64,000 nucleotides of DNA from Candidatus Uhrbacteria bacterium RIFCSPHIGHO2_02_FULL_46_47 (GCA_001790815.1 MGDU01000010.1:2621-66620); one strand, 5' to 3'. Positions 1 to 26,798 are shown, counted from the stretch's first letter. Notes: a model not told the origin generated them from the letters alone. Translations and numbers: made by a program.

Positions 1-193
1 TGTGGAAAACCCAAAGTTTGTAATGGTAACCCGTATTGATCGTCCCAAGGATGTCCAATTTGCCGAGTCCTCGGCCGCCCCGCTTTTTGGCGAAATTGCG
101 CGATTTTTACTGCAATATTACGAGATTAAGCCAACCCGGCCGATTGTACAACACTGAGTGTGGTACAATATACGGAAGCTCAGCCTCCGTAAT

Positions 194-904
194 ATGCGCA
201 ATATCAATTTCTATAATGGAGGATTTTATCACATTTATAATCGCGGTGCATTAAAAGAACCGATTTTTTTAGAAGTGAATGACTATGTGCGATTTGTGCA
301 TGATCTGTACGAATTTAACGATGTAAATTATACTATTGATTTTCGGAAGATAACAGGAAGCTCAGCTTCCGTTGCATCCACGGAAGCTGAGCTTCCGAGC
401 ATTAAAAAGCCGCAGCGTGAGCCGGTGGTGGCGATCATATCATGGTGCTTGATGCCAAATCATTTTCATCTTTTCTTACAACAGCTGAAGGATGGTGGTA
501 TAAGTTTTTTTATGCATAAACTCGGCACCGGATACACCAACTATATTAATCGAAAATATGAAGAGCGGAGCGGACACCTTTTTCAAGGAAGATTTAAGGC
601 AAAACATATTGGGCAAGAAGGATATTTTTTACATATTTCGCGTTATATTCATCTGAATCCTGTGGATTTGATTGAGTCAGGATGGAAAGAAGATGGGATC
701 AAAGATTGGAATAAAATACAAGAATTTTTGGAAAATTACCGTTGGTCTAGTTACCAAGATTGGGTTGGGAAGAAAAATTTTCCATCTGTGTTGAATTTGA
801 ATGGAGTGGAGAAGATTTTTGAAGGTGCAGAAAAATATACAAGGTTTATGAAAGAATGGGCAACTGGAAATTATCAGCCGATAAAAAGTTTAGTTGCGGG
901 ATAA
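194..904 (+). CDS. REP-associated tyrosine transposase (RAYT, Y1 HuH transposase, IS200-like)
   Basis: Motif I FYHIYNRG, HuH motif MPNHFHLFL, catalytic-Tyr region SRYIHLNP. Start moved from 158 to the Met preceding motif I; about 17 aa (ITGSSASVASTEAELPS) between motif I and HuH are encoded by an inserted REP doublet. Confidence 0.8.
   Translation: MRNINFYNGGFYHIYNRGALKEPIFLEVNDYVRFVHDLYEFNDVNYTIDFRKITGSSASVASTEAELPSIKKPQREPVVAIISWCLMPNHFHLFLQQLKDGGISFFMHKLGTGYTNYINRKYEERSGHLFQGRFKAKHIGQEGYFLHISRYIHLNPVDLIESGWKEDGIKDWNKIQEFLENYRWSSYQDWVGKKNFPSVLNLNGVEKIFEGAEKYTRFMKEWATGNYQPIKSLVAG
356..396. repeat. REP-like palindrome doublet (family A, GGAAGCTCAGCTTCC) in-frame inside the RAYT gene
   Basis: Two 15-bp palindromes in inverted orientation separated by 11 nt; same element at 909-948 and 62243-62279. 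Confidence 0.8.
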
Positions 905-1025: not shown

Positions 1026-4000
1026 ATGAGGAAAATATCCCTATTTCTCCTATTTCTTTTAATAGGAGGCGCTGTCATATTTGGCCGTGCCTTAACGGTT
1101 TTTGCTGTTGCCGGGATTCCAAAAGTAATTAATCACCAAGGACGGCTTCTTGACAGTAGTGGCAATTTGCTTGGCGGATCCGGGACCAATTATTGTTTCC
1201 GATTTTCCATTTATGATGATGTAACCGTGGGCGCTCCGGACACCAAAGTTTGGCCAGCTGGCACGCCTTCTACCATGACCGCGCAGGTGCGCAATGGGGT
1301 GTTTAATGTAGGGATAGGGGATACGGCGGCCGGCGGCGATACACTGGATTTTAATTTTCAAGATAATGATACTGTATTTTTGAATGTGGAAGTTGCCGCG
1401 CAAATAAGTAGCTCATGCGCAGGAGTAACATTTGAAACTTTAAGTCCGCGCCAGCGCGTAGCTTCTTCCGGGTACGCGATTAATGCTGATACAGTTGACG
1501 GGCTTAATCCCGGCACTGGCGCGAACAATCTTTTGAAACTTGGTTCATCCGGCGAGATCGCGCTTGGCGGAACTACTTATTTGACTGCCGCCGGCGCGCT
1601 TTCAAACATCGCAAGTCTTACCGGTTCAGGCGCGCTGACTATTACTTCAAGCGCCTCTGGCGCGATTACTCTTGATGCCGCTTCAAATGTGGTTGCTATT
1701 GCGGCGGGCGATGAATTACAACTTGGCACGGCCGCGGCAGACCCTACTGGCGCAAACGGCCGCGTATTTTATAACACGGCAACCAATAAGTTCCGCTGTT
1801 ATGAAAATGGCGCGTGGGCTAATTGCATTGGCGCGGGCGGGAGCAGTACTTTGCAAGATGCCTATGGCAATGGAAATACCATTACCACAACTGATGCCCG
1901 CAACATTCTTTTTTCACTTGCAGATACTGCGACAGATTCGGATTTTATCATAGATCTTTTAGGCACTGGCAACATATTTGAAGTGCGCGATAGCGGCGTA
2001 GCTGTCGTGACTGTGGCCGATGGCGGCGCGACAACCTTTACCGGCGCGGTTACAGCCAATGGTAATATCAATTTTGACGATGCTGGCGCAGATACGATTT
2101 CAATCGGCGCTGCAGCAGATACCGTGACAATTACCTCTGACACCCTGTCTTTGACCGACAATAACTGGACAATTTCCACAGTGGGCGCGGCTTCTTTTGC
2201 CTCGCTTTCGGTGGGCGGCGTTTCTGATCCCTACGTGGACGAAACCGGAGACACCATGACCGGATCACTGACTTTCTCCGCAGTTGCCACTGACCTTACC
2301 ACTGGCGTGAATGAAGCCCTGACCATCTCTCCCAATGGCACTGGCGACTTGGTGGTTGACACAGACGCTGACACCACCCTGACCTTAAACGGCGGAGGAG
2401 ACGGAGTTGATTCTCTGGTGCTTACCGACGGCGATATTCTTGTTTCTGACGGCGATCTTGACCTTTCCGGCGGGGACTTCAATGTTACGCTGGATGCCGG
2501 CGATACGGCCAACATTTCCAAAACCTCAGCCAATGCCGGGGATGTGGTGGCTTTAGCCGGCACCTCAGTCAATGCCATTGACGTGCTGGATCTCTCCGCC
2601 ACCTCTATAGCTGACGCGGTAGCGGATGCCATAAACGGCTTGGTAATTAACTGGACTGAATCCACTGACGCTGACACTTTCACTGCCTTAAACATCGGCA
2701 ATACCACCACCACCAATTCCGCCACCACCGGCATTTCCCTCGGCACAGGTTACGACACCGACTTAAACGCCACGACCGACCTGACTCTGGGCATCGGCGG
2801 AACGAATGAACTCACCATCACCTCCACGGCCACATCTCCCTCCACCTCAGACGGCAATGCTCTGGGCACCACCTCCTTAATGTGGGGCGATCTGTTCCTG
2901 GCCTCGGGCGGAGTGATCAACTTTGACAATGGGGATGTTACCCTCACCCATGCCGCTAATGCGCTCACCATGGCTGGAGGAAATCTAACAGTTACTCAAC
3001 CTGTGTTTACTTCCGGTTCGCCTTTCGGCTTAACCTTCACCGGCGGGGCGCATACCACGCTTGCGGCTGGAACGCAGGCAAAAGACATATACTTCAATCT
3101 TGGACGGACAGTGCAGTTTGCAACCGGAGCGTTGGCTAATCAGGAAGTAATTACGATTGACGCTCCGACTTACGCTTTCGTGGGAGCCTCAACGCTTACA
3201 GAGGCAACAACATTAAACATCTCCGGTGCGCCTCAACAAGGCACAAACGCCACGATTACAAACGCTTACGGACTTACGATTAGCCAAACCAATTACGCTA
3301 GCGCAAATGCCGTCCAGTCATTGATTGAAATGCCCGGGATTTCCAACGGAGCCGGAGCAATAACATCCCGTATAGGATTAATCATTGCTGATGCGGGCGC
3401 TAACATATCGCTTGGCAATCAAACCGCTACGCTTACTTTACTTAAAGGGCTTAGTATCAATACGGTAACCTATGAGTCCACCACAAATACCCGAACTGTC
3501 ACAAACGCGATAGGGGCAACCATAGCCGCGCCGTCTTCAGGTACGAATGTGACAATGAACACCGTTGTTGCTCTTGTCCTTGGCGATGACAACACACAGG
3601 CTAGCCAAACAGGATTTGCGTACGCGGATTTGGTAACCGGCGGCAACACTTTGACGCTTACTGGCACAACACAGCTCACCAACGTGCCTTCAATTTCTAG
3701 TGTCAATGTTGGCGCAACTACGATAACGGACGCTTCGGCGATTACGGTAGACAGCGTGGCCAGTGTTTATATTGAGGGAGCTCCAATCGCGGCAGGGTCG
3801 GTGACGCTTACGAATGCTTATGCGTTGTGGGTGGATGCGGGGGCTATTAGATTTGATGATCAAATCCAATGGGGAGCAGGTGTTGCAGTTACAGCAGGGA
3901 ATTATTCTGTCGGGAGAAACGCTGATGGTACGAATCTATTGCAACTTAACGTGCCAACTGGCTCAACACACGAGTTTTCCGTGAACGATGTTTCCCAAGT

Positions 4001-7000
4001 CAATGTGGGATTGGGCGGATTTAGCTTCCCTACTGGTGCCGCAATAACCGCGGCTGGTTATCAAGTTCTCCGCGATGCCGATGGAACGAATCAATTGCAT
4101 TTTAATGTTCCGACTGGAGCCACCTTTGAATGGTCGGTAAATGATGTTGCGGAGATGACGCTTTCGGCAACGGCGGTGAATTTTCAGAACAATTCCTTGA
4201 CTACGACTGGCGGTGGTTCGCTTACCGGTACTTGGACTGATTTGGGAAGCGTAACAACGATAGATATTAACGGCGGCACCATTGATGGCGCGACAATCGG
4301 CGGAGCGGTTGCAGGTGCAATCACTGGTACAACTATCACCGCTAATACCAATTTTGTCCCGGACGCGGATGACGGAGCTGGACTGGGTATTTCTGGTACA
4401 GCTTTCTCAGATTTGTTCTTAGCTTCTGGCGCAGTCATCAACTTCGCGGCTGGCGATGTAACGCTCACGCACGCTTCCAACTCCCTCGCAGTAGCCGGCG
4501 GCGACCTGAATGTGGATATTATTGATGGGCAAACTATTAACCTGGACGGGGATGCCAGCCCGACTGCGGATCTGGTAACCATTGGCTCTGGGGACACTTC
4601 GGCCACCGGCGGAGTGGACGCGCTACAGCTTACTTTCGGAACCTCCAATGTTTCAGGAAATGTCATTGATATTACACCGAGTTATGCCGGCGGAGCTACG
4701 GATCTTCTTTCCTACAAAATCATTGATATTGACGCTTTTTCTCCCACCAACGGCGCTGGCACTGATGGAGTTACTGGGATTGACTTTGGCGCGCTGACTG
4801 ACCCAGGCGCCACCATCAATTCTTTTGCCATGAATTTTGGCACGGGTTGGGACACGGATATCAACGCCGTTACCTCTTTGGAAATTGGCATTGGCGGCAC
4901 CAATGAGCTGGCACTCACGGCCACGGCTCTTGCTCCCTCCACCTCGGACGGCAATGCCCTGGGCACCACCGCCTTGATGTGGTCCGACCTGTTCCTCGCT
5001 TCGGGTGGAGTGATCAACTTTGACAACGGAGATGTTACTTTGACGCATGCGGCCAATGCGTTGACCATGGCTGGAGGAAACTTGACCGTCACCCAGCCGG
5101 TGTTTACTTCAGGTTCTCCTACCGGCTTGACCTTTACTGGCGGGGCGCATACAACACTTGCGGCGGGAACACAGGCAATAGACATAAACTTCAATCTTGC
5201 CCGAACAGTTCAATTCGCCACTGGCGCGTTAGCCAACCAAAGCGCGATAAACATCAGCGCGCCGACTTATGGTTTTGTCGGGGCTTCAACACTTACTACT
5301 GCGGAGTTGCTTACGTTAAGCGGATTTCCTCAGGCCGGAACAAACGCCACAATTACAAACGAGCGGATACTCCATATTGCCTCAGGCACAGCCAATGCCG
5401 GTATCGCATACAGTTTTTTCATTGATATGCCGGGGATTGCCAACGGCTTTGGCGCAATGACGAGCTTAGAGGGCATAATGCTCTCTGCGGGAGGCAATGT
5501 TTCTTTAGGGAACCAAACTGCTACTCTTTCTAATCTGATTGGGCTTAGCATTGATACTGTAACTTACGAGTCCACGACAAATGTAAGAACAGTGACAAAT
5601 GCAGTGGGAATGGTAATCTCTGCGCCATCTTCCGGTTCAAATGTCGTGATGAACACAGTGATAGCGGGCGCCTTTGGCGGAGATACAACGCAGGTGAGCC
5701 AGACAGCATTCCAATATGTGGATATTTTAACCGGCGGCAATACCCTGACGCTTACCGGCACAACGCAATTAACAGGAGCACCTTCAATTTCCAGCATTGC
5801 TGTTGATCCAATTACCATTACCGACGCTTCGGCAGTAACGGTTGATAACGCGGCAAGCGTGTACATCACGGGCGCGCCTATTGCGGCAGGGTTAGTTACG
5901 CTTACCAATGCTTATGCGCTTTGGGTTGATGCTGGGGCTATTAGATTTGATGACCATGTTCAATGGGGAGCAGGCGTTGCGGTTACAGCAGGAAATTATT
6001 CTGTCGGAAGAAATGCGGATGGTACGAATCTATTGCAGTATAACGTCCCGACTGGCTCAACGCATGAGTTTTCCGTGAATGATGTTTCCCAAGTCAATGC
6101 GGGATTGGGCGGATTTAGTTTCCCTACTGGTGCCGCAGTTACGGCGGCTGGTTATCAAGTTCTCCGCGATGCAGATGGTACAAATCAACTACATTTCAAT
6201 GTGCCCACAGGAGCTACCTTTGAATGGAGTGTAAACGATGTTGCCGAGATGACGCTTTCCGCAACGGCGGTGAACTTCCAGAATAATTCCTTGACTACGA
6301 CTGGCGGCGGTTCTCTTACGGGTACTTGGTCGGATTTGGGAAGTGTAACAACGATAGATATAAATGGAGGTACGGTGGACGGAGTAACGATTGGCGGAGC
6401 AGTGGCTGGAGCGATTACGGGAACGACCATCACAGCTACTACAAGTTTTGTAAGTGCAGTAGGTTCTGCCGCCGCTCCTACTTACACTTTCACAGGCGAT
6501 ACGAATACAGGAATGTCCGCGGCTACGGCTGATACGCTTATTCTCTCCACAGCTGGTGTCGCAGGATTAACGATTGATCCGACCCAGGACTTTACCCTAA
6601 CACAAGGCGTTTCTGCGACTGGTTCTCCTACCGGCCTTACCTTTACCGGTGGGGCGCATACTACGCTCGCGGCCAGTACAGAGGCGAGAGATGTTTACTT
6701 TGACCTTTCCAGAACAGTGCAGTTTGCAACAGGTGATATTACAGTGCAACGAGCAATGGTTATTGACGCGCCGACTTACGCGGCAGTTGGAGCAAGCAAC
6801 TTCACGCATACTTATGGTGTAGTCATTGACGGTGCGCCCAATCCGGGTACGAATGTTACATTTACCGGAATTTCCTCGGCTTTGAATATCGGGAATATGG
6901 ATAACGGGAACAATTATAGTCAAACAGAAGTTATTCATGGAATCGCCATGATTCCGGGTATTGCCAATGGTACGGGTGCCGTGGCAGAGCGCGGAGCATT

Positions 7001-10000
7001 TACCACTGCTCCGCCTGATTCAGGAATCCACCTTGGCAATCAAACCGCGACTTTGGATCTTCTTTATGGAATGGGTGCATTTGGCGGCCCGGTTGATTCA
7101 ACTACCAATACCCGCACGGTTACAAATGCCGCCACGCTTTATATTGATGGGCCGTTCAGCAATGCCGGAAATGTCACTTTCACCAACGGGCCTTATTCGC
7201 TTTGGGTGGATGCGGGGGCTATTAGATTTGATGATCAAATCCAATGGGGAGCAGGAGTTGCAGTTACAGCAGGGAATTATTCTGTTGGGAGAAACGCAGA
7301 TGGTACTAACTTAATGCAATTTAATGTACCTACTGGAGCGGCTTTTGAGTTCTCAATCAACGATGTTGCTCAAATTACTGGTGGTCTAGGGGCATGGAAT
7401 TATGCGGCTGGAGCTAGTTTTGCTGGAGGAGCCGCAAATTACATCATCGGAAGAAATGCTGACGGAACAAACCTCATGCAGTATAACGTCCCAACAGGAG
7501 CTTCGCATGAGTTTTCAATCAATGATGTTGCGCAAATAGCTATAGGTGGAGGTCAATTTTCCTTCATCACGGGTACGGCGACCGCTGGGGCTAGTTATTC
7601 TGTTGGACGAAATGCCGATGGTACGAATTTAATGCAGTACAATGTTCCGACTGGAGCTTCGCATGAGTTCTCTGTGAATGATGTTACCGAAATGACCCTC
7701 TCCGCAACAGCGGTGAATTTTCAGGATAATTCAATCACTACGACTGGCGGCGGTTCGCTTACGGGCACTTGGACTGACTTGGGTTCAGTTACCACGGTAG
7801 ACATCAACGGCGGAACGATTGATGGTGTAACTATTGGCGGAGCAGTTGCAGGGGCAATCACTGGTACAACTATCACAGTTAATACTAATCTTGTGCCAGA
7901 CGCGAATGACGGTGCAGGTCTTGGTATTTCTGGCACAGCATTTAGTGACTTGTTCTTAGCTTCTGGGGGAGTCATTAACTGGGCGGCAGGGGATGTAACA
8001 CTTACTCATGCCACAGATGCGCTCACCATGGCTGGAGGAAACTTGACCGTTACCCAGCCTGTGTTCACTTCCGGCTCACCCACCGGTCTTACCTTCACGG
8101 GCGGGGCGCATACCACGCTAACGGCTGGCAATCTTATTGATGTCAACTTCAACCTTGCTCGCACTGTTCAATTCACAACAGGTGCCGCGTTTGATTATTA
8201 CGGGGTTCAGATTTCGGCTCCGACTCTTGGAGCCACCGCCGCCACACAGACCATCTCAGGAACTACAATGTTTATCGGTGGCGGTCCAATAGCTGGAACG
8301 AATGTAACATTGAGTGGAAGCACCGCGCTAGAAGTGGACGGCTGGTTTTCCAATTCAGATATCGCGGATACCGTGTTTATTGATTATCCAGAGATCGCTA
8401 CTGGATTTGGCGCGGCGACAGAACGAGCCGCCTTAAGGATCGGAGGTGATACCTTCATTCTTGGTAATCAGACCGCCACTTTGACCGATCTGGCGGCCAT
8501 TAGCATTGGTCAAGCTACTTTCACATCCACCGACCTTGTCCGAACTGTTACCAATCCAAGCGCAATTTACATCGAGGGCGCGCCAGTGGCGAGTACGAAT
8601 GTTACTTTCACCAACGGGCCTTATTCCCTTTTTGTGGATGCCGGCGCCGCGCGGTTTGACGGCGCGGTGGCTTTGGGCGCCCAGCAATCGCTTACGGTGA
8701 ACTCAACCACCCCATCTGTTTCAGCTGGTTCCCACTTTGTTACGGCCAATTCTGCTGGAACGGTTATTAGCAATTTCACCAGCGGCCACAATGGGCAGAT
8801 CCTTGTCGTGGAAATCAACGACGCCAATACTGATTTTGACTGCACCGCTTCAAACCTTAATTGCGGTGGCGCGGACATCACCACTCCCGCGGCCGGAGAT
8901 CTTTTCACCTTCGCGTACGACGGCACGAACTGGAACCTCATCAACTGGATGGATACCTCCGCGACCCAAACCGGCGCGGATATTGCGGAATATATGTATG
9001 CGGATGCGGAGATTGCGCCAGGAACTGTGGTAGTGGCGCACCCAACGCGCAAAGAAGCTGTTATGGCGGGCGCGAAAGCTTATGACGCGACAGTGGTGGG
9101 CATTATTTCAGACGTTGAAGGTAAGTTGAGCGATATTCGACCGGGTCTCGTGCTTGGTGAAGGTCGCGGTAATGTGCCGGTCACTCTTGCCGGACGCGTG
9201 ATGGCGGCGTTTGATTTACAAAATGGTCTAGCATTTCCGGGCGATCCGCTTACCACCAGTACTAACGGCCGGCTGATGGTGGCTAAAAAAGCCGGCCCGA
9301 TTGTGGGCAAGGCCTTGAGTTTGGCCGAAAACGGATATGTGGTCGCTATGGTGAGCGTGGGTTGGTACAATCCCACGGATCTTTCACAAGTAAGCCAGGA
9401 GATGGAGGATTTGCGCGAACAAGTAAGAATCGCGCAAGCGGAAACTGCTCCAATAGAATTTACGCTGGAAGCCATGCAAAAGTTGGATGTTCGGGTTGCT
9501 AATCTTGAAACTTTGATTGCCGAACCGATAGAAGAGTTGTCAATACTTTCCAATCGCGTGGGAACCCTTGCGGATGCTTATGCGGAGGCGATAATATGGC
9601 GCGCAAGTGTTGAGACACAACTTATCGCGTTTACTGGTCGAACTGATACGCTGGAGGCGCGGGTAAATGCGATTGATCCTGTGCTTGAGGATTTGAAAAA
9701 TCGTTTGAGCGCGGTTGAGAATCCGTCACTGAGTGATGGTTCGGAAAATCACTCAGTGACAACGTTGGATTTGAGTAAGCTGGAATTGTCAGGCAGTTTG
9801 ACATTGCAAAGTGGGGCAACGATTTCCGGTGGTTTGCGCGTGGATAGCGTGAGCGCAATAGGGGATCTGCTGGCACTGATGAGTGATGTGAACTTTATTG
9901 GCCGGCCGTACTTTAACGCGGATACCGGAGGATTCGCACTTGTGAAAAAAGGTGAACGTGAGGTGCGAGTGGCGTTTACGCAAGAGTATTTGGAACAGCC

Positions 10001-10649
10001 GGTGGTAAACGCGACAATTTCACTTGAAGCCCTTGATGAATCAGCGCTTACGGAAGATCAGCGCGCTTTGCTTGATGAAGCGCAGAAAAAAGATTTGCTT
10101 GCCCAGATGCAGAGCGAACAAGAAGAGGCGCTTTTTACAAGTGGGGTGCGCTACTTGGTAACGCGCAAGAGTACCAAAGGATTTACGATTCTTTTGAGCG
10201 CGGCCGCTCCATCAGATGTGCGATTTAGCTGGATCGCGCTGGCAGTGAAGAACGCACGAACGCACACGAAAGTTGAAGATACACTAACGGACACGAACAC
10301 AAGTAGCGCGGCACTTGATGTGCCGCTGGAGGCACCCTCACCCCCGCAGTCATCCGACGCGGCTACGAACCCTCTCCCTGCGGGAGAGGGAGTAGTTTCT
10401 CCTCCGGATGATGCGGCGGTTCTTGAACCTGCCACAGAGCCCACGCCGGAAGGGCTAAGTCCTGTCGCAGGGCTTAGCCCTGAAACCAGCAACGCCCCAG
10501 AACCTGCACCTGAGCCAGTCGGGTCATCCGACCCGACTGCCCCGTCGGATGACGGGGCAGAACCCGCACCGGAAACCGCACCAGAGGCCACGCCAACCTC
10601 TGATATTTCATCCACAGATAGCATAGTTGCCACAGAGGAAACGCCATGA
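1026..10649 (+). CDS. giant (3207 aa) secreted/surface repeat protein, fibre/adhesin-like
   Basis: N-terminal signal/TM ([14 protein letters not shown]). Thr/Gly/Ala/Asn-rich beta-repeat modules are reiterated ([44 protein letters not shown] x3-4; [36 protein letters not shown] x3+). A C-terminal globular segment ([23 protein letters not shown]...WYNP) is followed by a coiled coil and a Pro/Ala/Glu-rich tail. The strand is uninterrupted for 9.6 kb. Confidence 0.85.
2791..8130 (+). repeat. intragenic long tandem/mosaic repeats (about 2.1-kb period) within the giant gene
   Basis: 2791-4886 vs 4887-6980 align with roughly 80-85% DNA identity, by eye. A third partial copy with extra [23 protein letters not shown] sub-repeats lies at about 7190-8130. 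Confidence 0.75.
9723..9760. repeat. palindromic insertion element, family D (TCACTGAGTGAT..ATCACTCAGTGA), in-frame in the giant gene
   Basis: 14-bp perfect inverted repeat with 11-nt spacer; encodes [14 protein letters not shown] near-identical copy sits at 13290-13328. Confidence 0.75.
10335..10391. repeat. GC-rich palindromic insertion element, family C, in-frame in the giant-gene tail
   Basis: CCCTCACCCCC...CCCTCTCCCTGCGGGAGAGGGAG; encodes [20 protein letters not shown]. Confidence 0.6.
10452..10483. repeat. palindromic insertion element, family B (GGGCTTAGCCC pair), in-frame in the giant-gene tail
   Basis: agggctaagtcct..cagggcttagccctg; encodes [10 protein letters not shown]. Confidence 0.7.
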
Positions 10650-10687
10650 TATCATCATAATGATATTTACTCGCCATCATAAAATAT

Positions 10688-10969
10688 ATGAGTAATACGA
10701 TTGAAGTTACCACAAATGACATAATGGAGTTTTTGAAGGATAACATGGTGACGAAGGAGGATTTACGGGATGAAATTAAGAAGGTAAAAGATGAGATTCT
10801 TTCGCAACTGGCGGTAATGCAAAAAGAACTGGAAGACATTAAAGCGCGCCTTGATGATATTGAAGAAAGATTGAAAGATGACACGGATGCGCTCGCGCGC
10901 GATGTATTGCAATTGAGAGAGCGTGTGGTTGTGCTTGAAAAACAGCTTGGCATTCAAGTATTAATGTAA
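10688..10969 (+). CDS. small coiled-coil protein, hypothetical
   Basis: 93-aa ORF with heptad-like charged repeats (KEDLRDEIKKVKDEILSQLAVMQKELEDIKARLDDIEERLKD). Confidence 0.4.
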   Translation: MSNTIEVTTNDIMEFLKDNMVTKEDLRDEIKKVKDEILSQLAVMQKELEDIKARLDDIEERLKDDTDALARDVLQLRERVVVLEKQLGIQVLM

Positions 10970-11085
10970 TAATTTAAAAATAAGTATACAACTATGGGAA
11001 ATGCAAAACGACTCGCTACTCCTGAACCAACAACCGAGCCAGTTGCCACCGAAACCCAGCCGTGATATTATGACAGTTACTAAAT

Positions 11086-11133
11086 GTAGTCGCAGGTCTT
11101 TAGCCTGCGCGCAACCTAAAGAGTTGCGGCTAC
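11086..11133. repeat. REP/BIME-like element, family E (GTAG..hairpin(TCTTTAG loop)..hairpin(CTAAAGA loop)..CTAC)
   Basis: gtagtcGCAGGtctttagCCTGCgcGCAACctaaagaGTTGCggctac: two stem-loops with the conserved loop and different stems. Confidence 0.7.
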
Positions 11134-11153
11134 CTAATTATAATAAATAAAAT

Positions 11154-11549
11154 ATGGGAAATGCAAAACGTTTTGTTCCCCTAATTCTTTTTTTGCTACT
11201 TGTGGCCTCTGTCGCAGGAAATGCAATGCTGTATAAAAAGCTCAGAGTCCTTAAGCAAAATCCGCAAATGCTTGCACAAGAAGAAAATAAAGCCCTAGTT
11301 GCTAAAGTAGGCCAATTAATTGTTTTGCCTGAAGGCGAGGAGCCAACTGTTGCAACGGTAAATGAGCCGGAAAAACTCAAAGATCAGCCATTTTTCGCAA
11401 ATGCAAAACAAGGCGACAAGGTCTTGATTTACACTAAAGCGAAAAAAGCAATTTTGTATCGCACGGCGGAAAATAAGATTGTTGAAGTCGCGCCGGTAAA
11501 TATTGGTGAACAGCCAGCCGTAAGCGCGCCAGAGGCGCCTAAGGAATAG
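11154..11549 (+). CDS. small membrane-anchored protein, hypothetical
   Basis: 131 aa with N-terminal TM (FVPLILFLLLVASVAG); bracketed by inverted family-E elements. Confidence 0.5.
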   Translation: MGNAKRFVPLILFLLLVASVAGNAMLYKKLRVLKQNPQMLAQEENKALVAKVGQLIVLPEGEEPTVATVNEPEKLKDQPFFANAKQGDKVLIYTKAKKAILYRTAENKIVEVAPVNIGEQPAVSAPEAPKE

Positions 11550-11552
11550 TTT

Positions 11553-11607
11553 GTAGCCGCAACTCTTTAGGTTGCGCAATTGACGCCGGCTAAAGACCGG
11601 CGACTAC
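11553..11607. repeat. REP/BIME-like element, family E (inverted relative to the 11086 copy)
   Basis: gtagccGCAACtctttagGTTGCgcaattgacGCCGGctaaagaCCGGCgactac. Confidence 0.7.
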
Positions 11608-11620
11608 TAGATAACACGAA

Positions 11621-11666
11621 CCCTCACCCTCAATCCCTCTCCCCGAGGGAGAGGAAAGGTGAGGGG
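11621..11666. repeat. GC-rich palindromic element, family C (intergenic copy)
   Basis: ccctcaccctcaatccctctccccgagggagaggaaaggtgagggg: nested inverted repeats. Confidence 0.7.
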
Positions 11667-11718
11667 CACGCAAAGGGTATGGCAAAAACCATGCCTTTTT
11701 GGTATGATAAGGGAATGT

Positions 11719-13026
11719 ATGAAATTACAATGTTCGCGTTCGTTCGTCCTTCTGTTCGTGTTCTTTAGTGTGTTTGCGCCTTTGGCGCAAGCAACGGATT
11801 TTACCAGCACGAATTTTATTTTGCGTGACCCAGTTGTGACAATTGAAGGAGGGTATTCAAGCTCAACAAATTTCCAATTTTTCAGCAGCACTGGTCAGAC
11901 CGCGATCGGAGAGACTACCAGCACAAGCTTTACCCAGCGCTCCGGATTTTTATATTTTCCAACAGCAACAACGCCGGCCATTGCCGCAACAGCCGGAAAT
12001 GGTGAAGTGAGTTTGAGCTGGAGCGCGGCGACTGGCTCGCTTGGTAATGTGACAAATTATCGCGTTGGCACCGCAACAGTTTCCGGCGGACCGTATACTT
12101 ATGAGTCAGTTGGAAATGTTTTGACTTTTACCAAAACAGGACTTACTAATGGCACAACATATTATTTTGTCGTGCAAGCGCAGGCCGCAACTGAAACCGT
12201 GGCAACTTCCGCGCAGGTCTCAGCCACGCCTGCCGCGCCCGCGCCGTCCGGTGGAGGCGGAAGCGCTGTTATTGCAACATCTGCTCCCTCTGGCGCAAGT
12301 GTAATGCTTTCCGGGTGGGCCTATCCATTAAGCAATGTCGTGGTACTCAAAGACGCGCAAGTGGCAATGCGCACCATTGCCGGTCCGGACGCGAAGTTTA
12401 CTGTTGCGGTCTCCGGGCTTTCCGCGGGAACCTATACATTTTCCGCGTACGCGGAAGATAATATAGGGCGGCGTTCACAATTGTTTAATTTCAGTATTTT
12501 TGCAACACAAAATGCCAGTACGCAAATTGGCGGGATATTTATCGCGCCCAGCATTGCAACCGACAAGGTACATGTCCGCGCGGGCGATGATATTGCCATT
12601 TTTGGGCAAAGCGTTCCCAATGGAGAAATCACTATCGCGGTTAATTCGCCGGAAGAGATTTTTGTAAAAACCGCTTCGGATGGAAATGGCGCGTACTTGT
12701 ACAACTTTGATACTGCGCAACTTACGACAGGGGAACATTTTACCAAATCAAAAGCGCGCCTTAACGGCGAAGTAAGCCCGTTTGGGGTCGCGGTGAGGTT
12801 TGGCGTTGGCAAGGAGAATATTTCTTCAGTTGCCGCGCCATGTCCCAAAACGGCCGATCTTAATAACGATTGCAAGGTGAACTTGATTGATTTTTCAATC
12901 GCGGCGTATTGGTATAAACGCGAGCTCAGTACTGCGTTTGCGGAACTGGAAAAAACGCGCTTGAATGGTGATGGGAAAATTGATTTGGTGGATTTTTCTA
13001 TCATGGCGTTTTATTGGACGGGATGA
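11719..13026 (+). CDS. secreted protein with fibronectin type III-like domain and C-terminal dockerin-like double Ca-binding repeat
   Basis: Signal peptide MKLQCSRSFVLLFVFFSVFAPLAQA. Fn3-like GEVSLSWSAATGS..NGTTYYFVVQAQA. C-terminal DLNNDCKVNLIDFSIAAYW / LNGDGKIDLVDFSIMAFYW matches the type I dockerin duplicated-segment pattern. Start chosen at the Met before the signal peptide (ORF track 11659). Confidence 0.6.
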   Translation: MKLQCSRSFVLLFVFFSVFAPLAQATDFTSTNFILRDPVVTIEGGYSSSTNFQFFSSTGQTAIGETTSTSFTQRSGFLYFPTATTPAIAATAGNGEVSLSWSAATGSLGNVTNYRVGTATVSGGPYTYESVGNVLTFTKTGLTNGTTYYFVVQAQAATETVATSAQVSATPAAPAPSGGGGSAVIATSAPSGASVMLSGWAYPLSNVVVLKDAQVAMRTIAGPDAKFTVAVSGLSAGTYTFSAYAEDNIGRRSQLFNFSIFATQNASTQIGGIFIAPSIATDKVHVRAGDDIAIFGQSVPNGEITIAVNSPEEIFVKTASDGNGAYLYNFDTAQLTTGEHFTKSKARLNGEVSPFGVAVRFGVGKENISSVAAPCPKTADLNNDCKVNLIDFSIAAYWYKRELSTAFAELEKTRLNGDGKIDLVDFSIMAFYWTG

Positions 13027-13028
13027 TT

Positions 13029-13056
13029 GAATGTAAAATGAAAAATGTAAAATTAA
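13029..13056 (+). promoter_or_regulatory. family G element: tandem TGTAAAAT extended -10-like boxes overlapping an MKNVKL start codon
   Basis: gaaTGTAAAATgaaaaaTGTAAAATta; copies at 15334, 20651, 39928, 55365. Confidence 0.45.
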
Positions 13057-13940
13057 AAATTATTGTTGTCCTAATGGTGCTCGCGCCTAATTTTGCGTAC
13101 GGAGCGGAGTTTTATTTTGGCACACAATCAAAAGAAATCGGCGTGGGGCAATTGGGAGAGGTCGGAGTGTTTTTAAATACTGATGATGCGCAGATTAACG
13201 CGATTGAAGGAAAAATTATATTTTCCGATAGTGTGACGGTGAAAGAAATTCGCGAAGGCGGTTCAATGATTAGTTTGTGGGTTGAGAATCCGTCACTGAG
13301 TGATGATGACCCTAATCACTCAGTGACGATCATGTTTAGCGGGATTATCCCCGGCGGCTACACCGGTAATCGCGGATATTTGTTCTCGATAATATTTGAA
13401 AAAACTAAAGTCGGCGATGTGAAAATTGAAGTGAATGATGCGCGCGCATTGCTTAATGACGGGCAGGGGACATCGACTGAAGTACGCGTATCGCCACTCA
13501 CGCTTGCGGTCGTAGAAAAAACTGGGGCGCCGGGATATTTGCCGCCTTATGATAATGAGCCGCCGGAATCATTTGTGCCGGAGATTGCGCAAGATCCGAA
13601 TTTATTTGATGGAAAATGGTTTGTTACATTTGCCACGCAGGATAAAATTTCTGGAATTGATCGTTATGAAATCGCATTTGGTTCACTTGGCAATTTCGTT
13701 CGTGTTGAAAGTCCGTTTGTCTTGCCACTCTGGAAACAGCTGGCTGGTGGAATTGTTAGGATTAAAGCCATTGATCGCGCTTCAAACGTTCGCATTGAAA
13801 CTTTACCAATCGCCATACCTTTGCCCTGGTATGAAGATTATCGGATTTGGGGTATAATCCTAGGAGGAGCTATTATTGTATACCTCATATTTCGTCTATG
13901 GAAGCAAAAACAAATAAAACACACAAAAAAACACGAATAG
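13038..13940 (+). CDS. membrane-anchored protein with cohesin-like domain
   Basis: Signal MKNVKLKIIVVLMVLAPNFAYG. Domain GVGQLGEVGVFLNTDDAQINAIEGKIIFSDSVTVKEI...VKIEVNDARALLNDG fits the cohesin beta-sandwich pattern; C-terminal TM (IWGIILGGAIIVYLIF). Contains the in-frame family D palindrome (PSLSDDDPNHSVT). Confidence 0.5.
   Translation: MKNVKLKIIVVLMVLAPNFAYGAEFYFGTQSKEIGVGQLGEVGVFLNTDDAQINAIEGKIIFSDSVTVKEIREGGSMISLWVENPSLSDDDPNHSVTIMFSGIIPGGYTGNRGYLFSIIFEKTKVGDVKIEVNDARALLNDGQGTSTEVRVSPLTLAVVEKTGAPGYLPPYDNEPPESFVPEIAQDPNLFDGKWFVTFATQDKISGIDRYEIAFGSLGNFVRVESPFVLPLWKQLAGGIVRIKAIDRASNVRIETLPIAIPLPWYEDYRIWGIILGGAIIVYLIFRLWKQKQIKHTKKHE
13290..13328. repeat. palindromic insertion element, family D, in-frame in the cohesin-like gene
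   Basis: ccgtcactgagtgat-gatgaccctaa-atcactcagtgacg. Confidence 0.75.
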
Positions 13941-15331: not shown

Positions 15332-15333
15332 CG

Positions 15334-15367
15334 GAATGTAAAATTAAAAATGTAAAATGAAAAATGA
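15334..15367 (+). promoter_or_regulatory. family G element (tandem TGTAAAAT boxes) at the murF start
   Basis: ggaaTGTAAAATtaaaaaTGTAAAATgaaaaatg; supplies the MKNE.. start. Confidence 0.45.
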
Positions 15368-16763
15368 GTGTATGAAGGAAGTAGTAATATCTATCCTCCA
15401 GGTATTTGCCAAGCTCATTTTGCAAAAATATAAACCCACTATTGTCGCTATAACCGGTTCGGTTGGAAAAACGTCAACCAAAGAGGCAATTTACGCGGTT
15501 CTTGCTTCAAAATTTTCCGTACGCGCGACGCCCAGAAATTATAATAATGAATTGGGCGTACCGCTGACTATAATTGGAGCAGGACTTAGCCCTGAGCGTG
15601 AAAGGGCTAAGTCCTTGTTTCTTGGAAAGTCACCTTTTCGCTGGTGTAGAGTATTTTGCAGAGCATTGTGGCAAATTATCATGCCTGCGCGCTATCCGGC
15701 AATATTAGTGCTGGAGATGGGAGCAGATCGGCCAAAAGACATACAAAAACTCGTAAAACTTGCTCCGCCAAAAATTGGGGTGGTAACTGCTATTGCGCCA
15801 GTGCATACTGAATTTTTTGGCGATGTGGAAAAAGTGGCGCGTGAAAAAAGGCGTCTTGTTGAAGCAGTGCCAAAGCAGGGGACAGTGGTATTAAATATAG
15901 ATGATGAAATGGTGCGTGAGTTTGCAAAGCATGCAAAAAGTACGGTTGTTGGTTATGGAATTGAGAGCAATGAGGCAGAAGTAAGGGCAGTTGAGGTGCA
16001 TGATGATATTGAAATAGGGGGAAGCCGAACCTCCGATGCTTCGGAGGTTCGGCTTCCAGACATTGAATTAGGCAGTATTCATTTCAAAATTATAACTGAC
16101 GGCTCTGCCGTGCCCGTGCATTTGCCTAGTGTGTTGGGCCACGCCCACGTGTACGCGGCGCTTGCCGCTTGCGCAGTGGGACGCGCGTTTGGAATGCACA
16201 TGGTTGAAATTTCCCGTGCGCTGTTAAATTATGCTCCGCCTCCCGGCCGCATGCGAATTATTGCTGGCATTAAAAATACGGTGATCATTGACGATACTTA
16301 CAATGCTTCTCCGCGGGCAACTGTAGCCGCCCTTGAAACACTTGGAGGGCTAAGCCCTTTTTCAAAATCAGGGCTTAGCCCTGTGCGTTACGCCGTGCTT
16401 GGCGATATGCTGGAGTTAGGGCCTTATACAGAATCCGGCCATCGCGAAGTGGGCCGCGTTGCGGCGCAAAATGCCGATGTAGTTATTGGCGTGGGTGTCA
16501 GTGCGCAATGGCTTGTTGATGAGGCAAATAAAACCCGTCTAAATTTACCCTCTGCTGAAGGAAATTTTGTCGGGCATTTGCATACCCATGACGAAGCCGA
16601 ACATTTTTTGCAGGAGCGAATACGGCCGGGCGATGTGATACTGATCAAAGGATCTCAAAGCATGCGCATGGAGAAGCTCGTCAAAGGTCTAATGGCTGAA
16701 CCTTTGCGCGCGGATGAATTATTATGCCGACAAGAAAAAGAATGGTTGACACGACAACACTAA
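15357..16763 (+). CDS. murF: Mur ligase family protein, MurF-like (UDP-MurNAc-pentapeptide synthetase)
   Basis: P-loop ITGSVGKTSTKE and MurF-type NNELGVPLT motif. The usual N-terminal domain is missing, and it carries two in-frame family B palindromes (GLSPERERAKSL; GGLSPFSKSGLSP). Confidence 0.65.
   Translation: MKNECMKEVVISILQVFAKLILQKYKPTIVAITGSVGKTSTKEAIYAVLASKFSVRATPRNYNNELGVPLTIIGAGLSPERERAKSLFLGKSPFRWCRVFCRALWQIIMPARYPAILVLEMGADRPKDIQKLVKLAPPKIGVVTAIAPVHTEFFGDVEKVAREKRRLVEAVPKQGTVVLNIDDEMVREFAKHAKSTVVGYGIESNEAEVRAVEVHDDIEIGGSRTSDASEVRLPDIELGSIHFKIITDGSAVPVHLPSVLGHAHVYAALAACAVGRAFGMHMVEISRALLNYAPPPGRMRIIAGIKNTVIIDDTYNASPRATVAALETLGGLSPFSKSGLSPVRYAVLGDMLELGPYTESGHREVGRVAAQNADVVIGVGVSAQWLVDEANKTRLNLPSAEGNFVGHLHTHDEAEHFLQERIRPGDVILIKGSQSMRMEKLVKGLMAEPLRADELLCRQEKEWLTRQH
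15581..15615. repeat. family B palindrome in-frame in murF
   Basis: aggacttagccct-gagcgtgaa-agggctaagtcct (12-bp perfect inverted repeat). Confidence 0.75.
16347..16383. repeat. family B palindrome pair in-frame in murF
   Basis: gggctaagccc..agggcttagccctg. Confidence 0.75.
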
Positions 16764-16795
16764 GTGATGTACAACACGCAGTGTTGTACGTGTTA

Positions 16796-19055: not shown

Positions 19056-19607
19056 ATGTTAGGGGGAATACAGCAGTTAGTCTCAAGCATCAATTGGTCT
19101 CGGCCAAGCTGGGATTTATTCATTTTTTTGTTTTTCTTTATTATCGCGTTTTTGTACGGTTTTTCTTTGGGACGCGACCGTATTTTAGTGATTTTAGTTT
19201 CCATCTATATTGCCCTGGCGGTAGTTCCCGCCTTTCCTTATCTTGATCGTCTACATCTTGATGTGTCAGTGCAGGGTTTTGCATTCCGCGTAACCTCGTT
19301 TTACATTGTATTCGTAGTTTTGTTTTTCCTGTTATCTCGCTCCGCGCTTGTGAATCTCTTGGGCGCGCAAAACACAGGAGTGGGAGATCGTTTAATTGAG
19401 GTTATTATTTTTAGTATTTTGCACGTTGGACTTTTAGTTTCTGTTACGCTCTCTTTTTTACCTCAAAATGCCCTGATGCAGCTTTCTACCGGCACGCGCG
19501 AAGTATTTACCTCTGATATGGGCAAGTTTTTGTGGCTTGTCGCGCCGGTAATCGCAATGATTATATCTTCACACCATCGATGGCGAAGAGGAGGATTCCA
19601 GGGCTAA
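19056..19607 (+). CDS. integral membrane protein (4-5 TM), possibly CvpA-like
   Basis: Multiple hydrophobic helices; the stop codon lies inside a family B palindrome. Confidence 0.45.
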   Translation: MLGGIQQLVSSINWSRPSWDLFIFLFFFIIAFLYGFSLGRDRILVILVSIYIALAVVPAFPYLDRLHLDVSVQGFAFRVTSFYIVFVVLFFLLSRSALVNLLGAQNTGVGDRLIEVIIFSILHVGLLVSVTLSFLPQNALMQLSTGTREVFTSDMGKFLWLVAPVIAMIISSHHRWRRGGFQG

Positions 19608-20644: not shown

Positions 20645-20650
20645 TATGAC

Positions 20651-20687
20651 AAATGTAAAATTCAAAATGCAAAATGTAAAATTATTG
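20651..20687 (+). promoter_or_regulatory. family G element (tandem TGTAAAAT boxes) at the start of paralog 2
   Basis: aaaTGTAAAATtcaaaatgcaaaaTGTAAAATtattg; gives the MQNVKLLLL start. Confidence 0.45.
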
Positions 20688-26766: not shown

Positions 26767-26798
26767 AACAAAAATCTCACGATCGTGAGATTTTTGTT
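26767..26798. promoter_or_regulatory. perfect 32-bp palindrome with TCACGATCGTGA core
   Basis: AACAAAAATCTCACGA|TCGTGAGATTTTTGTT. Confidence 0.55.

What the first reader, a model, noticed from the sequence alone, without database searches (positions are those of the whole stretch)
9723..13328. Family D palindrome (TCACTGAGTGAT-N11-ATCACTCAGTGA) shared in-frame by the giant protein and a cohesin-like protein
Two unrelated genes carry a near-identical 38-bp element with a 14-bp perfect inverted repeat, both translated as ENPSLSD..NHSVT. The shared DNA, not just shared peptide, indicates insertion or recombination of a mobile palindrome between surface-protein genes.
Basis: seen in the sequence. 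Interest (0 to 1): 0.5.

Follow-up and report, generated by a model that had tools for sequence, protein, structure and literature searches.

The report
Mobile hairpin element inserted inside genes
The shared palindrome is real: it is one of at least eight copies of a small REP-like hairpin element that this groundwater Uhrbacteria genome carries in frame inside unrelated genes, some of them essential. Matching copies crowd around an IS200/RAYT-type transposase gene elsewhere in the same genome, so this is a known kind of selfish DNA in a new lineage and an unusually compact form.

Summary
TCACTGAGTGAT-N10-ATCACTCAGTGA occurs exactly twice in the window (9726-9759 and 13293-13326), against 0 expected. 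Both copies are in frame as (E)NPSLSD....HSVT. Homologs of both host proteins lack the peptide, so the stated refutation does not apply.

It is not an exchange between two surface-protein genes. The genome is Candidatus Uhrbacteria RIFCSPLOWO2_01_FULL_47_24. The same doublet, with identical arms and different loops, also sits in frame in MurC, PrmC, a Ser/Thr kinase, two membrane proteins and a Y1 (IS200/RAYT-like) transposase gene, A3B21_04710. That transposase gene is densely flanked by units with the same 11-nt core.

Three paralogous or homologous transposase genes, including window 194-904, show the same layout, each with its own odd palindrome. A fourth homolog shows only the copy inside its reading frame.

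Best explanation: a REP/REPIN-like hairpin element mobilised by a cognate RAYT-like transposase and tolerated in genes. Only one frame per strand is stop-free, and the peptide lands in surface loops. Mobilisation is inferred, not shown, and no empty-site allele was found.

The closest known cases are intragenic REPs and Rickettsia palindromic elements. I rate it a new variant of a known kind, of moderate interest.

The parts
9720..9760 (.). Family-D doublet, copy 1, in the giant surface protein gene. One-sided AATCCG tag 9720-9725; arm 1 9725-9737 (GTCACTGAGTGAT); loop 9738-9747 (GGTTCGGAAA); arm 2 9748-9760 (ATCACTCAGTGAC). Read in frame as [14 protein letters not shown].
   Evidence: Twelve of 18 aligned homologs of this C-terminal region lack at least 10 of the extra ~11 residues, and none has the peptide.
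13287..13328 (.). Family-D doublet, copy 2, in the cohesin-like protein gene. AATCCG tag 13287-13292; arm 1 13291-13304 (CGTCACTGAGTGAT); loop 13305-13314 (GATGACCCTA); arm 2 13315-13328 (ATCACTCAGTGACG). Read in frame as NPSLSDDDPNHSVT.
   Evidence: It falls in a loop of variable length in the family: the mode is 8-9 aa in 74 of 113 homologs, and 14 aa here. In the AF2 model the arms encode the ends of strands 88-95 and 104-116, and the DNA loop encodes the turn 96-103.
1026..10649 (+). Host gene 1: giant (3207 aa) repeat-rich surface protein. Its C-terminal 300 aa also carry units of palindrome families B (10450, 10468) and C (10370-10390).
13014..13940 (+). Host gene 2: cohesin-fold plus second beta domain plus C-terminal TM helix. 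It corresponds to A3B21_02765 / P0001 (305 aa from the annotated start at 13023).
146..166 (.). Non-coding D-related single unit GTACA-ACACTGAGTGT-GGTAC. It is the fifth copy of the 9-mer core CACTSAGTG in the window and lies 27 nt upstream of the RAYT-like gene's ATG.
   Evidence: (5 copies against 0.10 expected).
194..904 (+). RAYT-like Y1 (HUH) transposase paralog in the window (HUH 'NHFHLF', 'RYIHLNP'). It is 41% identical to the family-D-associated transposase. It is flanked by, and contains in frame, its own palindrome family GGAAGCTSAGCTTCC (174-190, 356-396, 910-946).
   Evidence: Pfam Y1_Tnp 43 bits against cut-off 23. NCBIfam REP_Tyr_transpos 47 bits against cut-off 80. Also.
16757..16789 (.). 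Degenerate D-like units (CAACACTAAGTGATG; GTACAACACGCAGTGTTGTAC) in the intergenic stretch after the Mur-ligase gene.

Best explanation
The two sequences are members of a dispersed, species-specific family of miniature REP/REPIN-like elements. Each is two inverted copies of an 11-nt odd palindrome, TCACT-S-AGTGA. Together they form a 13-14-bp hairpin with a variable 10-nt loop, usually with CCG...CGA at the foot and a one-sided (G)AATCC tag.

Shown:
- The same genome holds at least 8 such doublets, all in frame in unrelated ORFs.
- The same genome encodes a Y1 HUH (IS200/RAYT-like) transposase, A3B21_04710, whose gene is packed with units of the same core on both flanks and inside its ORF.
- Paralogous transposases have the same layout, each with a different palindrome.

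Inferred, by analogy with IS200/IS605 TnpA and E. coli TnpA-REP:
- The transposase recognises the hairpin in single-stranded DNA, then cuts and re-inserts it.
- In a genome that is about 90% coding, most insertions land in genes.
- The survivors are those in the only stop-free frame (the same on both strands, TCA CTG AGT GAT ... CAC TCA GTG AC = SLSD....HSVT) and in surface loops that tolerate 11-14 extra residues.

On this reading the peptide is a passenger, not a functional motif.
For: (1) Pattern scans of public contigs recover the N10 doublet only in this Rifle-aquifer Uhrbacteria population, at 6 further places. Exact-sequence look-ups assign four hosts to the window's genome by the A3B21 locus-tag prefix: MurC A3B21_00610, GT-like A3B21_05005, kinase A3B21_04665 and transposase A3B21_04710. 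PrmC is found in the sibling MAG set. The transposase also shares an ENA contig with another gene of this genome.

(2) All 8 doublets have identical arms at every synonymous site but at least 5 different loops. Three copies share one loop, AAGGGTGCCC.

(3) In 20 kb around the transposase, all 7 exact 11-mer cores lie within 1.45 kb of it. One is just upstream, two form the in-frame doublet, two are downstream, and two form a doublet in the adjoining gene. Two related hairpins, GTCACTGAGAG..CTCTCAGTGAC, lie alongside. About 0.07 cores per 9 kb are expected by chance. A 92%-identical ortholog from another sample has the same flanks.

(4) Window RAYT 194-904 with GGAAGCTSAGCTTCC, P0149 (A3B21_03010) with CAGGGCTWAGCCCTG, and P0142 with TGTACAAAGCTWAGCTTTGTACA repeat the design: flanking units plus an in-frame internal copy at the same linker position. 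P0145 with CGTCTCTWAGAGACG shows only the internal doublet; no flanking units with arms of at least 6 nt were found within 260 nt.

(5) The proteins match Pfam Y1_Tnp. Their only NCBIfam match is REP-associated tyrosine transposase.

(6) Homologs of both window hosts lack the peptide. The insert sits in a loop of variable length (cohesin-like) or is an 11-aa extra (giant). In MurC the element region is about 15 residues longer than in a solved MurC.

(7) The two other frames hit TGA in arm 1 on either strand (read directly from the sequence; one search shows both strands open only in this frame).

(8) The hairpins are stable. The AF2 model places the peptide as a beta-hairpin tip.

(9) Precedent comes from the literature. 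REPs flank RAYT genes, and intragenic REPs occur in Opitutus terrae and Rickettsia conorii (PMC3733652). TnpA-REP binds and cleaves REP hairpins (PMC3479197).
Against: - No transposition event or empty-site allele was seen. All members of the >=90% identity clusters of MurC and PrmC carry the element, and all 8 assemblies carry both window copies.
- The element ends, and any target or target-site duplication, could not be defined. The AATCC tag is on either side relative to the loop and is absent from the kinase copy and degenerate in the membrane-protein copy.
- The net length gain in the cohesin-like loop is only about 5-6 aa over the modal homolog. This is less than the 12-13 aa the element encodes, so a simple insertion must have been accompanied by loss of native residues.
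- The two window copies also share 6-7 nt (GGTTGA) beyond what other copies share. This may be native W/A-V-E codons, a target preference or a short conversion tract.
- The transposases score below NCBIfam's RAYT cut-off: 47 and 34 bits against 80.
- Units next to the transposase carry GTACA..TGTAC extensions that the dispersed doublets lack.
- The collection scans required exact arms, so the perfect conservation of the arms is partly by construction and degenerate copies are uncounted.
Confidence: 0.72

Rival explanations
1. Short-patch gene conversion or recombination copied the segment from one of the two neighbouring surface-protein genes into the other.
For: The two window copies share 26 nt on the left, including GGTTGA. 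No other family member has that stretch, and it lies outside the palindrome. The genes are only 3.5 kb apart.
Against: The 8 loop positions between the identical blocks match at only one position, so no single tract spans the element. Six further copies with the same arms sit in unrelated genes on other contigs of the same genome, so no transfer between these two genes is needed. V-E (GTT GAG) is the native consensus at this position in both protein families, and W (TGG) is invariant in the cohesin-like family. That makes a shared GGTTGAG a modest coincidence.
Confidence: 0.08
2. The palindrome is kept because it is a binding site or structural signal used by the cell. It could be a paired operator or parS-like site for a dimeric DNA-binding protein (two 11-bp palindromes 23 bp apart), or an mRNA hairpin. 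On this view it is not mobile DNA.
For: Each arm is itself a perfect odd palindrome, typical of dimer-binding sites. The arms are perfectly conserved while the loops drift. A conserved 'GTACA-N11-TGTAC' box sits just upstream of several transposase genes, which could be an operator. The copies are fixed in the population.
Against: The copies sit at arbitrary positions in unrelated genes, with no run of T and no link to gene ends. Three other palindrome families with the same architecture co-occur, each tied to its own Y1 transposase gene. That fits REP/RAYT pairs, not one regulator. Binding by the transposase itself is part of the main explanation, so the two views overlap.
Confidence: 0.12
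3. ENPSLSD..NHSVT is a conserved functional peptide motif or domain element shared by the proteins, and the DNA identity is secondary.
For: The peptide is in frame and reads the same in all copies.
Against: Of 261 homologs retrieved for the cohesin-like protein, the giant C-terminus and the transposase, only the window's own protein has SLSD..HSV. Homolog alignments show a gap or a variable loop there. The hosts span unrelated folds and compartments. Every synonymous position of the arms is identical in 8 copies. The frame is forced by stop codons in the other two frames.
Confidence: 0.02
4. Chance match or assembly artefact.
For: None. Palindromes can cause assembly errors, as shown by a run of N inside one copy in L056.
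Against: Zero of 100 shuffles gave a match. Both copies are identical in 8 independent assemblies from NCBI and ENA.
Confidence: 0.01

Closest known systems
REP / REPIN elements with their RAYT (TnpA-REP) transposases (Nunvar 2010; Bertels & Rainey 2011, PMC3116915; Messing 2012, PMC3479197)
   Same: Both are short, species-specific palindromes dispersed in many copies. The mobile-looking unit is a doublet of two inverted units that forms a long hairpin, as in a REPIN. A Y1 HUH transposase gene is flanked by the same units, as in a 'REPtron'. Several palindrome/transposase pairs coexist in one genome.
   Different: All 8 doublets are intragenic and in frame, rather than extragenic. The unit is a perfect 11-nt odd palindrome with no bulge. 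No unpaired 5' GTAG tag is present: CGTC is present but base-paired, and a (G)AATCC tag is one-sided. The whole doublet is only 38-46 bp. Each transposase gene carries a copy inside its own ORF. The proteins fall below NCBIfam's RAYT cut-off. The lineage (Patescibacteria/CPR) is not among those surveyed in the papers read.
Rickettsia palindromic elements (RPE) and other intragenic REPs (Opitutus terrae, Thauera, R. conorii RPE-4/6; Di Nocera 2013, PMC3733652; Ogata 2000, from memory)
   Same: Both are palindromic repeats inserted in frame into many unrelated protein-coding genes, including housekeeping genes, adding a short peptide without destroying the protein. Several families occur per genome. 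R. conorii RPE-4/6 are 'CGTC' REPs, and family D also starts CGTC.
   Different: RPE-1 is 100-150 bp, whereas this element is 38-46 bp. The CGTC REPs of that survey have 8-9-bp stems, 4-5-nt loops and an unpaired tag, and were reported to lack any dedicated transposase. Here a transposase gene flanked by the units exists. Sequence similarity to RPEs was not tested.
IS200/IS605 insertion sequences (IS608, ISDra2)
   Same: The transposase is of the Y1 HUH type (Pfam Y1_Tnp), and subterminal hairpins are the recognised feature.
   Different: The dispersed copies carry no gene. No defined left and right ends or tetra/pentanucleotide target were found. The transposase genes appear single-copy per palindrome type rather than multicopy.
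MITEs (miniature inverted-repeat transposable elements)
   Same: Both are small, non-autonomous, hairpin-forming and dispersed, and are sometimes found in frame in genes.
   Different: No target-site duplication could be identified, and no DDE transposase partner was found. The element is far shorter than typical MITEs.

Membership tests
REP/REPIN-RAYT system | Short palindromic repeat present in multiple dispersed copies in one genome | tested here: met
   At least 8 exact doublets. Six host genes carry the A3B21 locus-tag prefix or lie in the window; PrmC and the adjoining membrane protein come from the same MAG set. This is a lower bound, because the scans needed exact arms and only part of the genome was readable.
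REP/REPIN-RAYT system | Y1 HUH transposase gene flanked by the same repeats (REPtron) | tested here: met
   A3B21_04710 (L013:1515-2249). All 7 exact cores in 20 kb lie within 1.45 kb of the gene, on both flanks, inside it and in the adjoining gene, with two related hairpins alongside. The 92% ortholog has the same flanks.
REP/REPIN-RAYT system | Transposase belongs to the RAYT clade by sequence | tested here: inconclusive
   Pfam Y1_Tnp 43 bits is above the cut-off of 23. The only NCBIfam hit is NF047646 REP_Tyr_transpos, but at 47 and 34 bits it is below the cut-off of 80. phmmer found no PDB hit. HUH and 'RYIHLNP' are present.
REP/REPIN-RAYT system | Conserved unpaired tetranucleotide (GTAG or CGTC) at the 5' foot of the hairpin | tested here: not met
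   CGTC is present in 7 of 8 copies but lies inside the stem, paired with GACG. The candidate unpaired tag is (G)AATCC, found intact in 5 of the 7 N10 copies, on one side only and on either side relative to the loop.
REP/REPIN-RAYT system | Doublet of two inverted units forming a larger hairpin (REPIN) | tested here: met
   The G-centred unit is followed by the C-centred unit in every copy. The hairpin energy is -13 to -15 kcal/mol.
REP/REPIN-RAYT system | Extragenic location | tested here: not met
   All 8 doublets are inside ORFs. Only single D-like units are non-coding, at window 146-166 and 16757-16789 and in the transposase flanks.
REP/REPIN-RAYT system | Mobilisation by the transposase (binding, cleavage, copy-number change) | not testable with these tools
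   No polymorphic or empty sites were found in the available assemblies.
Rickettsia palindromic elements / intragenic REPs | In-frame insertion into many unrelated protein-coding genes with the host ORF preserved | tested here: met
   The hosts are recognisably MurC, HemK/PrmC, a kinase, a cohesin-fold protein and others.
Rickettsia palindromic elements / intragenic REPs | Inserted peptide lies at the protein surface or in a loop | tested here: met
   Shown for one host only. In the AF2 model of the cohesin-like protein the element spans the ends of strands 88-95 and 104-116 and the turn between them.
Rickettsia palindromic elements / intragenic REPs | Sequence or size relationship to the described RPE families | not tested
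   No RPE sequences were compared. The size (38-46 bp) is far below RPE-1.
MITE | Terminal inverted repeats plus a target-site duplication | tested here: inconclusive
   The whole element is an inverted repeat. No consistent direct repeat flanks the 8 copies. TTGAG occurs on both sides of the giant copy only.
Conserved protein domain or motif | Peptide present in homologs of the host proteins | tested here: not met
   Only 1 of 261 homologs has the peptide, and that is the window's own protein. Pfam finds no family on either region.

The most novel reading that the evidence does not exclude
Uhrbacteria (CPR) may maintain several co-resident palindrome/Y1-transposase pairs. In these pairs the palindromes live mainly inside protein-coding genes, as stop-free 'repetitive intragenic palindromes', and remodel surface loops even of essential enzymes. 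Every transposase gene examined also carries its own cognate palindrome in frame at one conserved linker position, which could reflect cis-acting self-insertion or autoregulation. If so, this would be the first dedicated transposase found for a CGTC-starting intragenic REP type, and a coding-adapted REPIN system in ultra-small genomes.
Probability: 0.4. Interest if true: 0.65.

Novelty: new variant of a known kind. Interest (0 to 1): 0.5.

Why it matters
Three reasons.

1. It explains an odd DNA identity between two surface-protein genes as part of a genome-wide process. In this window alone, at least four palindrome families add short peptides to proteins. One family adds a roughly 40-residue insert to this genome's MurC, encoded on another contig. 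Insert-rich CPR proteins may therefore owe part of their 'extra' loops to selfish hairpin DNA rather than to adaptation. This matters for annotation, for structure prediction and for reading lineage-specific inserts.

2. It links an intragenic, CGTC-starting palindrome to a specific Y1 transposase gene. A 2013 survey (PMC3733652) reported that CGTC-type REPs, including the Rickettsia intragenic ones, had no dedicated transposase. This system offers a testable pair.

3. The copy of each palindrome inside its own transposase ORF is a feature I did not find described in the papers read. It could bear on how such systems are regulated.

Tried and rejected
- A genome-contig scan for the doublet gave only unrelated hits: tandem arrays in rumen Bacteroidales, actinobacterial MAGs and others. 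The window's species is not in that collection.
- A viral-contig scan gave 0 hits.
- Most metagenome hits with other spacers (L010-L012, L014, L016, L019-L027, L029-L034, L036, L038-L042) are unrelated tandem or other repeats.
- Pfam gave nothing for the cohesin-like protein or the giant C-terminus. phmmer against PDB gave nothing for the transposase.
- An Rfam E-value search of 9000-14000 gave no family at either copy.
- I looked for empty-site alleles in the >=90% identity clusters of MurC and PrmC. The length differences are only start-codon calls.
- I looked for orthologs of the other host genes in the window to obtain empty sites, and found none.
- The closest giant-protein homolog, P0121, covers only the upstream domain.
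- I tried to decide whether AATCC is part of the element or a preferred target, using PrmC, where D-S-P could be native. Both readings fit.
- I tested whether the giant copy and the L013 membrane-protein copy share extended flanks. The loops are 7/10 identical, but the flanks are not convincingly similar.
- Literature searches found no paper combining REP/RAYT terms with CPR/Patescibacteria terms. This covers only the held library.

Full report
**Observation**

The pattern TCACTGAGTGAT-N10-ATCACTCAGTGA occurs exactly twice in the 64-kb window, at 9726-9759 and 13293-13326. None of 100 dinucleotide-preserving shuffles gave a match.

Read in place, the two copies share 26 identical bases (GGTTGAGAATCCGTCACTGAGTGATG). 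Eight bases follow of which only one matches, then 14 identical bases (AATCACTCAGTGAC).

The perfect inverted repeat is 13 bp in copy 1 and 14 bp in copy 2. The spacer between the quoted 12-mers is 10 nt, not 11.

Copy 1 lies in ORF 1026..10649 (3207 aa) and reads [16 protein letters not shown]. Copy 2 lies in ORF 13014..13940 and reads [16 protein letters not shown].

Both strands of both copies fold as single-stranded DNA into the expected hairpin (-13 to -15 kcal/mol; z -4.0 to -6.7). The copies are identical in eight independent assemblies.

**Organism and host proteins**

The 308-aa protein is 100% identical to A3B21_02765 of Candidatus Uhrbacteria bacterium RIFCSPLOWO2_01_FULL_47_24, a CPR/Patescibacteria MAG from the Rifle aquifer.

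Its AF2 model (mean pLDDT 89.9) matches solved cohesin modules (Foldseek TM about 0.7). 'Cohesin-like' is therefore correct.

In an alignment of 30 family members, W89 is invariant and P93 nearly so, and they are followed by a loop of variable length before the F-S-G strand. Among 113 homologs that loop is 8-9 residues in 74 and 14 residues here. Only the window's own protein, out of all 261 proteins fetched, contains SLSD..HSV.

In the model the element's arms encode the ends of strands 88-95 and 104-116, and its loop encodes the turn 96-103.

For the giant protein, 18 homologs of the C-terminal region align across the site. Twelve lack at least 10 of the 11 extra residues, and none has the peptide.

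**A genome-wide family, not a two-gene affair**

A scan of metagenome contigs for the doublet returned many unrelated repeats. It also returned a coherent set with the same N10 spacing and CCG...CG(A) feet.

In every case the element lies in a long ORF and is read as SLSD....HSVT. The hosts are MurC, a HemK/PrmC methyltransferase, a Ser/Thr kinase, a glycosyltransferase-like membrane protein, a small membrane protein and a Y1 transposase.

Exact-sequence look-ups show that four of these proteins carry the locus-tag prefix of the window's own genome: A3B21_00610, _04665, _04710 and _05005. PrmC is found in the same set of sibling MAGs. The transposase also lies on the same ENA contig as another gene of this genome.

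One genome therefore holds at least eight doublets. Their arms are identical at every synonymous position. There are at least five different loops, three copies share AAGGGTGCCC, and the giant and small-membrane-protein loops are 7/10 alike.

Because the scans required exact arms, this count is a lower bound, and the perfect conservation of the arms is partly by construction.

The frame is forced. In arm 1 the two other frames contain TGA, and by symmetry the same holds on the opposite strand. Exactly one frame per strand is therefore open.

**Link to a transposase**

The transposase gene (L013:1515-2249 = A3B21_04710) is preceded by GTACA-TCACTGAGTGA-TGTAC and the hairpin GTCACTGAGAG..CTCTCAGTGAC. 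It contains an in-frame doublet with a 16-nt loop. It is followed by two more exact core units and a second copy of the related hairpin.

In 20 kb around it, all seven exact 11-mer cores lie within 1.45 kb of the gene, two of them as a doublet in the adjoining gene. About 0.07 per 9 kb are expected by chance. A 92%-identical ortholog from another sample has the same flanks.

The protein matches Pfam Y1_Tnp. Its only NCBIfam match is 'REP-associated tyrosine transposase', although below the curated cut-off.

The window's own paralog (194-904, 41% identical) repeats the design with GGAAGCTSAGCTTCC. Units lie at 174-190 upstream, 356-396 in frame at the same protein position, and 910-946 just after the stop.

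A third paralog of the same genome (P0149, A3B21_03010) does so with CAGGGCTWAGCCCTG.

A homolog from another sample (P0142) does so with TGTACAAAGCTWAGCTTTGTACA. For P0145, with CGTCTCTWAGAGACG, only the in-ORF doublet was found; no flanking units with arms of at least 6 nt lie within 260 nt.

The window also holds a non-coding D-related unit, GTACAACACTGAGTGTGGTAC at 146-166, immediately upstream of its transposase gene. This is the fifth copy of the 9-mer core, against 0.10 expected. Degenerate D-like units lie at 16757-16789.

**Mechanism**

*Shown:*
- a dispersed hairpin family;
- a cognate-looking Y1 HUH transposase gene surrounded by the same core;
- parallel palindrome/transposase pairs;
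- in-frame survival in loops.

*Inferred from IS200/IS605 TnpA and E. coli TnpA-REP, which bind hairpins in single-stranded DNA and cut via a catalytic tyrosine (PMC3479197):*
- The transposase mobilises the doublet.
- In a roughly 90% coding genome most insertions fall in genes.
- Selection keeps those that land in the single open frame and in tolerant loops.

*Not resolved:*
- the exact ends of the element;
- whether (G)AATCC, intact in 5 of the 7 N10 copies on either side, is a tag of the element or a preferred target;
- why the cohesin-like loop gained only about 5-6 residues when the element encodes 12-13, which implies some loss of native sequence;
- why the two window copies share GGTTGA beyond the family consensus. 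V-E is the native consensus in both protein families and W is invariant in one, so coincidence is plausible, but a short conversion tract or a target preference is not excluded.

No empty-site allele was found, so mobility itself is not demonstrated.

**Rivals**

- *Conversion between the two genes.* This is unnecessary given six further copies elsewhere. It also cannot span the element, because the loops are unrelated.
- *Functional peptide.* This is excluded by the homolog alignments and by identical codons.
- *Host-used binding site or RNA structure.* This remains possible in part, since each arm is itself a dimer-type palindrome. It does not explain four parallel families, each tied to its own transposase gene.
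- *Chance or artefact.* Both are excluded.
- No Rfam family matches either copy, and no viral contig carries the doublet.

**Comparison with what is known**

The system works like REP/REPIN-RAYT. It also resembles the intragenic REPs and Rickettsia palindromic elements described by Di Nocera et al. (PMC3733652), who found REPs inside genes in Opitutus terrae and R. conorii and noted that CGTC-type REPs lack a dedicated transposase.

It differs from these in six ways:
- an exclusively intragenic doublet location;
- a perfect 11-nt odd-palindrome unit without a bulge or an unpaired GTAG/CGTC tag;
- a very small size (38-46 bp);
- a transposase gene flanked by a CGTC-starting palindrome;
- a copy of each palindrome inside its own transposase ORF;
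- the CPR lineage.

Searches of the held literature found no paper joining REP/RAYT with CPR terms.

**Verdict**

It is a new variant of a known kind, of moderate interest (0.5). The broader pattern is the more interesting lead: several coding-adapted palindrome/transposase pairs in an ultra-small genome.

Noticed in passing
window 174-190, 356-396, 910-946, 62237-62287; variant at 16020-16057: Palindrome family A (GGAAGCTSAGCTTCC doublets) flanks the window's RAYT-like gene and sits in frame inside it. It also lies in frame in ORF 61740..63830. A variant (GGAAGCCGAACCTCCGA / TCGGAGGTTCGGCTTCC) lies inside the Mur-ligase ORF 15357..16763.
   Followed up: partly
window 10450, 10468, 15580, 16345, 16369, 19599, 19622, 37767, 37789; L052:9945-10689: Palindrome family B (CAGGGCTWAGCCCTG) has 8 of 9 units inside ORFs: the giant protein tail, the Mur ligase, and ORFs 19056..19607 and 37578..39224. 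Its cognate-looking transposase is P0149 / A3B21_03010 on another contig, which has flanking doublets and one internal unit.
   Followed up: partly
window 10370-10390, 28866-28948, 29097, 41323-41356, 44915-44985, 45756-45826, 47554-47624, 60985-61019; L018 MurC residues 307-350: Family C (CCCTCTCCC..GGGAGAGGG hairpin pairs, peptides such as PLPEGEGRV / LRGGEG) lies almost entirely inside ORFs (15 of 16 arms). In this genome's MurC it accounts for an insert of about 40 residues that is absent from solved MurC 9ir5.
   Followed up: partly
window 11086-11144, 11553-11607, 31067-31184, 46457-46481, 57630-57715: GTAG-tagged hairpins (GTAGYCGCNNNTCTTTAGNNNGCGC), the classical REP signature, occur 11 times and only in intergenic DNA. 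This contrasts with families A-D. No associated transposase was identified.
   Followed up: no
alignment A2 columns ~95-125; window 356-396; L013:1695-1734; L052:10169-10189; L055:1363-1407; L057:3158-3193: Every RAYT-like transposase gene examined (five lineages) carries its own palindrome in frame at the same variable linker, just before the HUH strand. A 'GTACA-[11-nt odd palindrome]-TGTAC' box lies just upstream of several of these genes, with a different core in each.
   Followed up: partly
window 26765-26800, 26936-26979, 27607-27638, 34960-34999, 35645-35684, 63928: Intergenic palindromes centred on CACGATCGTG, with A/T-rich arms (AACAAAAA..TTTTTGTT or TGATTGTCAA..TTGACAATCA). They sit between genes and could be regulatory or terminator-like sites.
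   Followed up: no
window 13024-13066, 15329-15371, 20646-20688, 39922-39964, 55360-55436: A/T-rich AATGTAAAATG-type repeats lie at the 5' ends of genes and partly form inverted pairs. They overlap the mechanically called starts of ORFs 13014.. and 15357.., so the true start codons are probably downstream.
   Followed up: no
window 31645-31739, 40972-41054, 48320-48415: An 82-nt intergenic repeat (ATGCCAATMTACGAATTTCATGC..ATTTGTAGATTTG) is present in three copies, forming long imperfect hairpins after ORFs.
   Followed up: no
window 2742-8128: The giant protein contains three internal repeats of about 2.1 kb (66-89% identical at the DNA level).
   Followed up: no
L056:935-944: A run of 10 N sits exactly inside the transposase-internal D palindrome in one public scaffold. 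These hairpins evidently break or gap short-read assemblies.
   Followed up: no
P0276 (PrmC strain variant), element residues SSLRDKG: One strain variant has a point change (S to R) inside the D arm of the PrmC copy. This is the only sequence variation seen in an arm.
   Followed up: no
L007, L033, L036, L026 (unrelated metagenome/genome contigs): The same 11-12-mers recur in long tandem arrays in unrelated organisms (rumen Tannerellaceae and others). They are probably coding or satellite repeats and are not related to the Uhrbacteria family.
   Followed up: no
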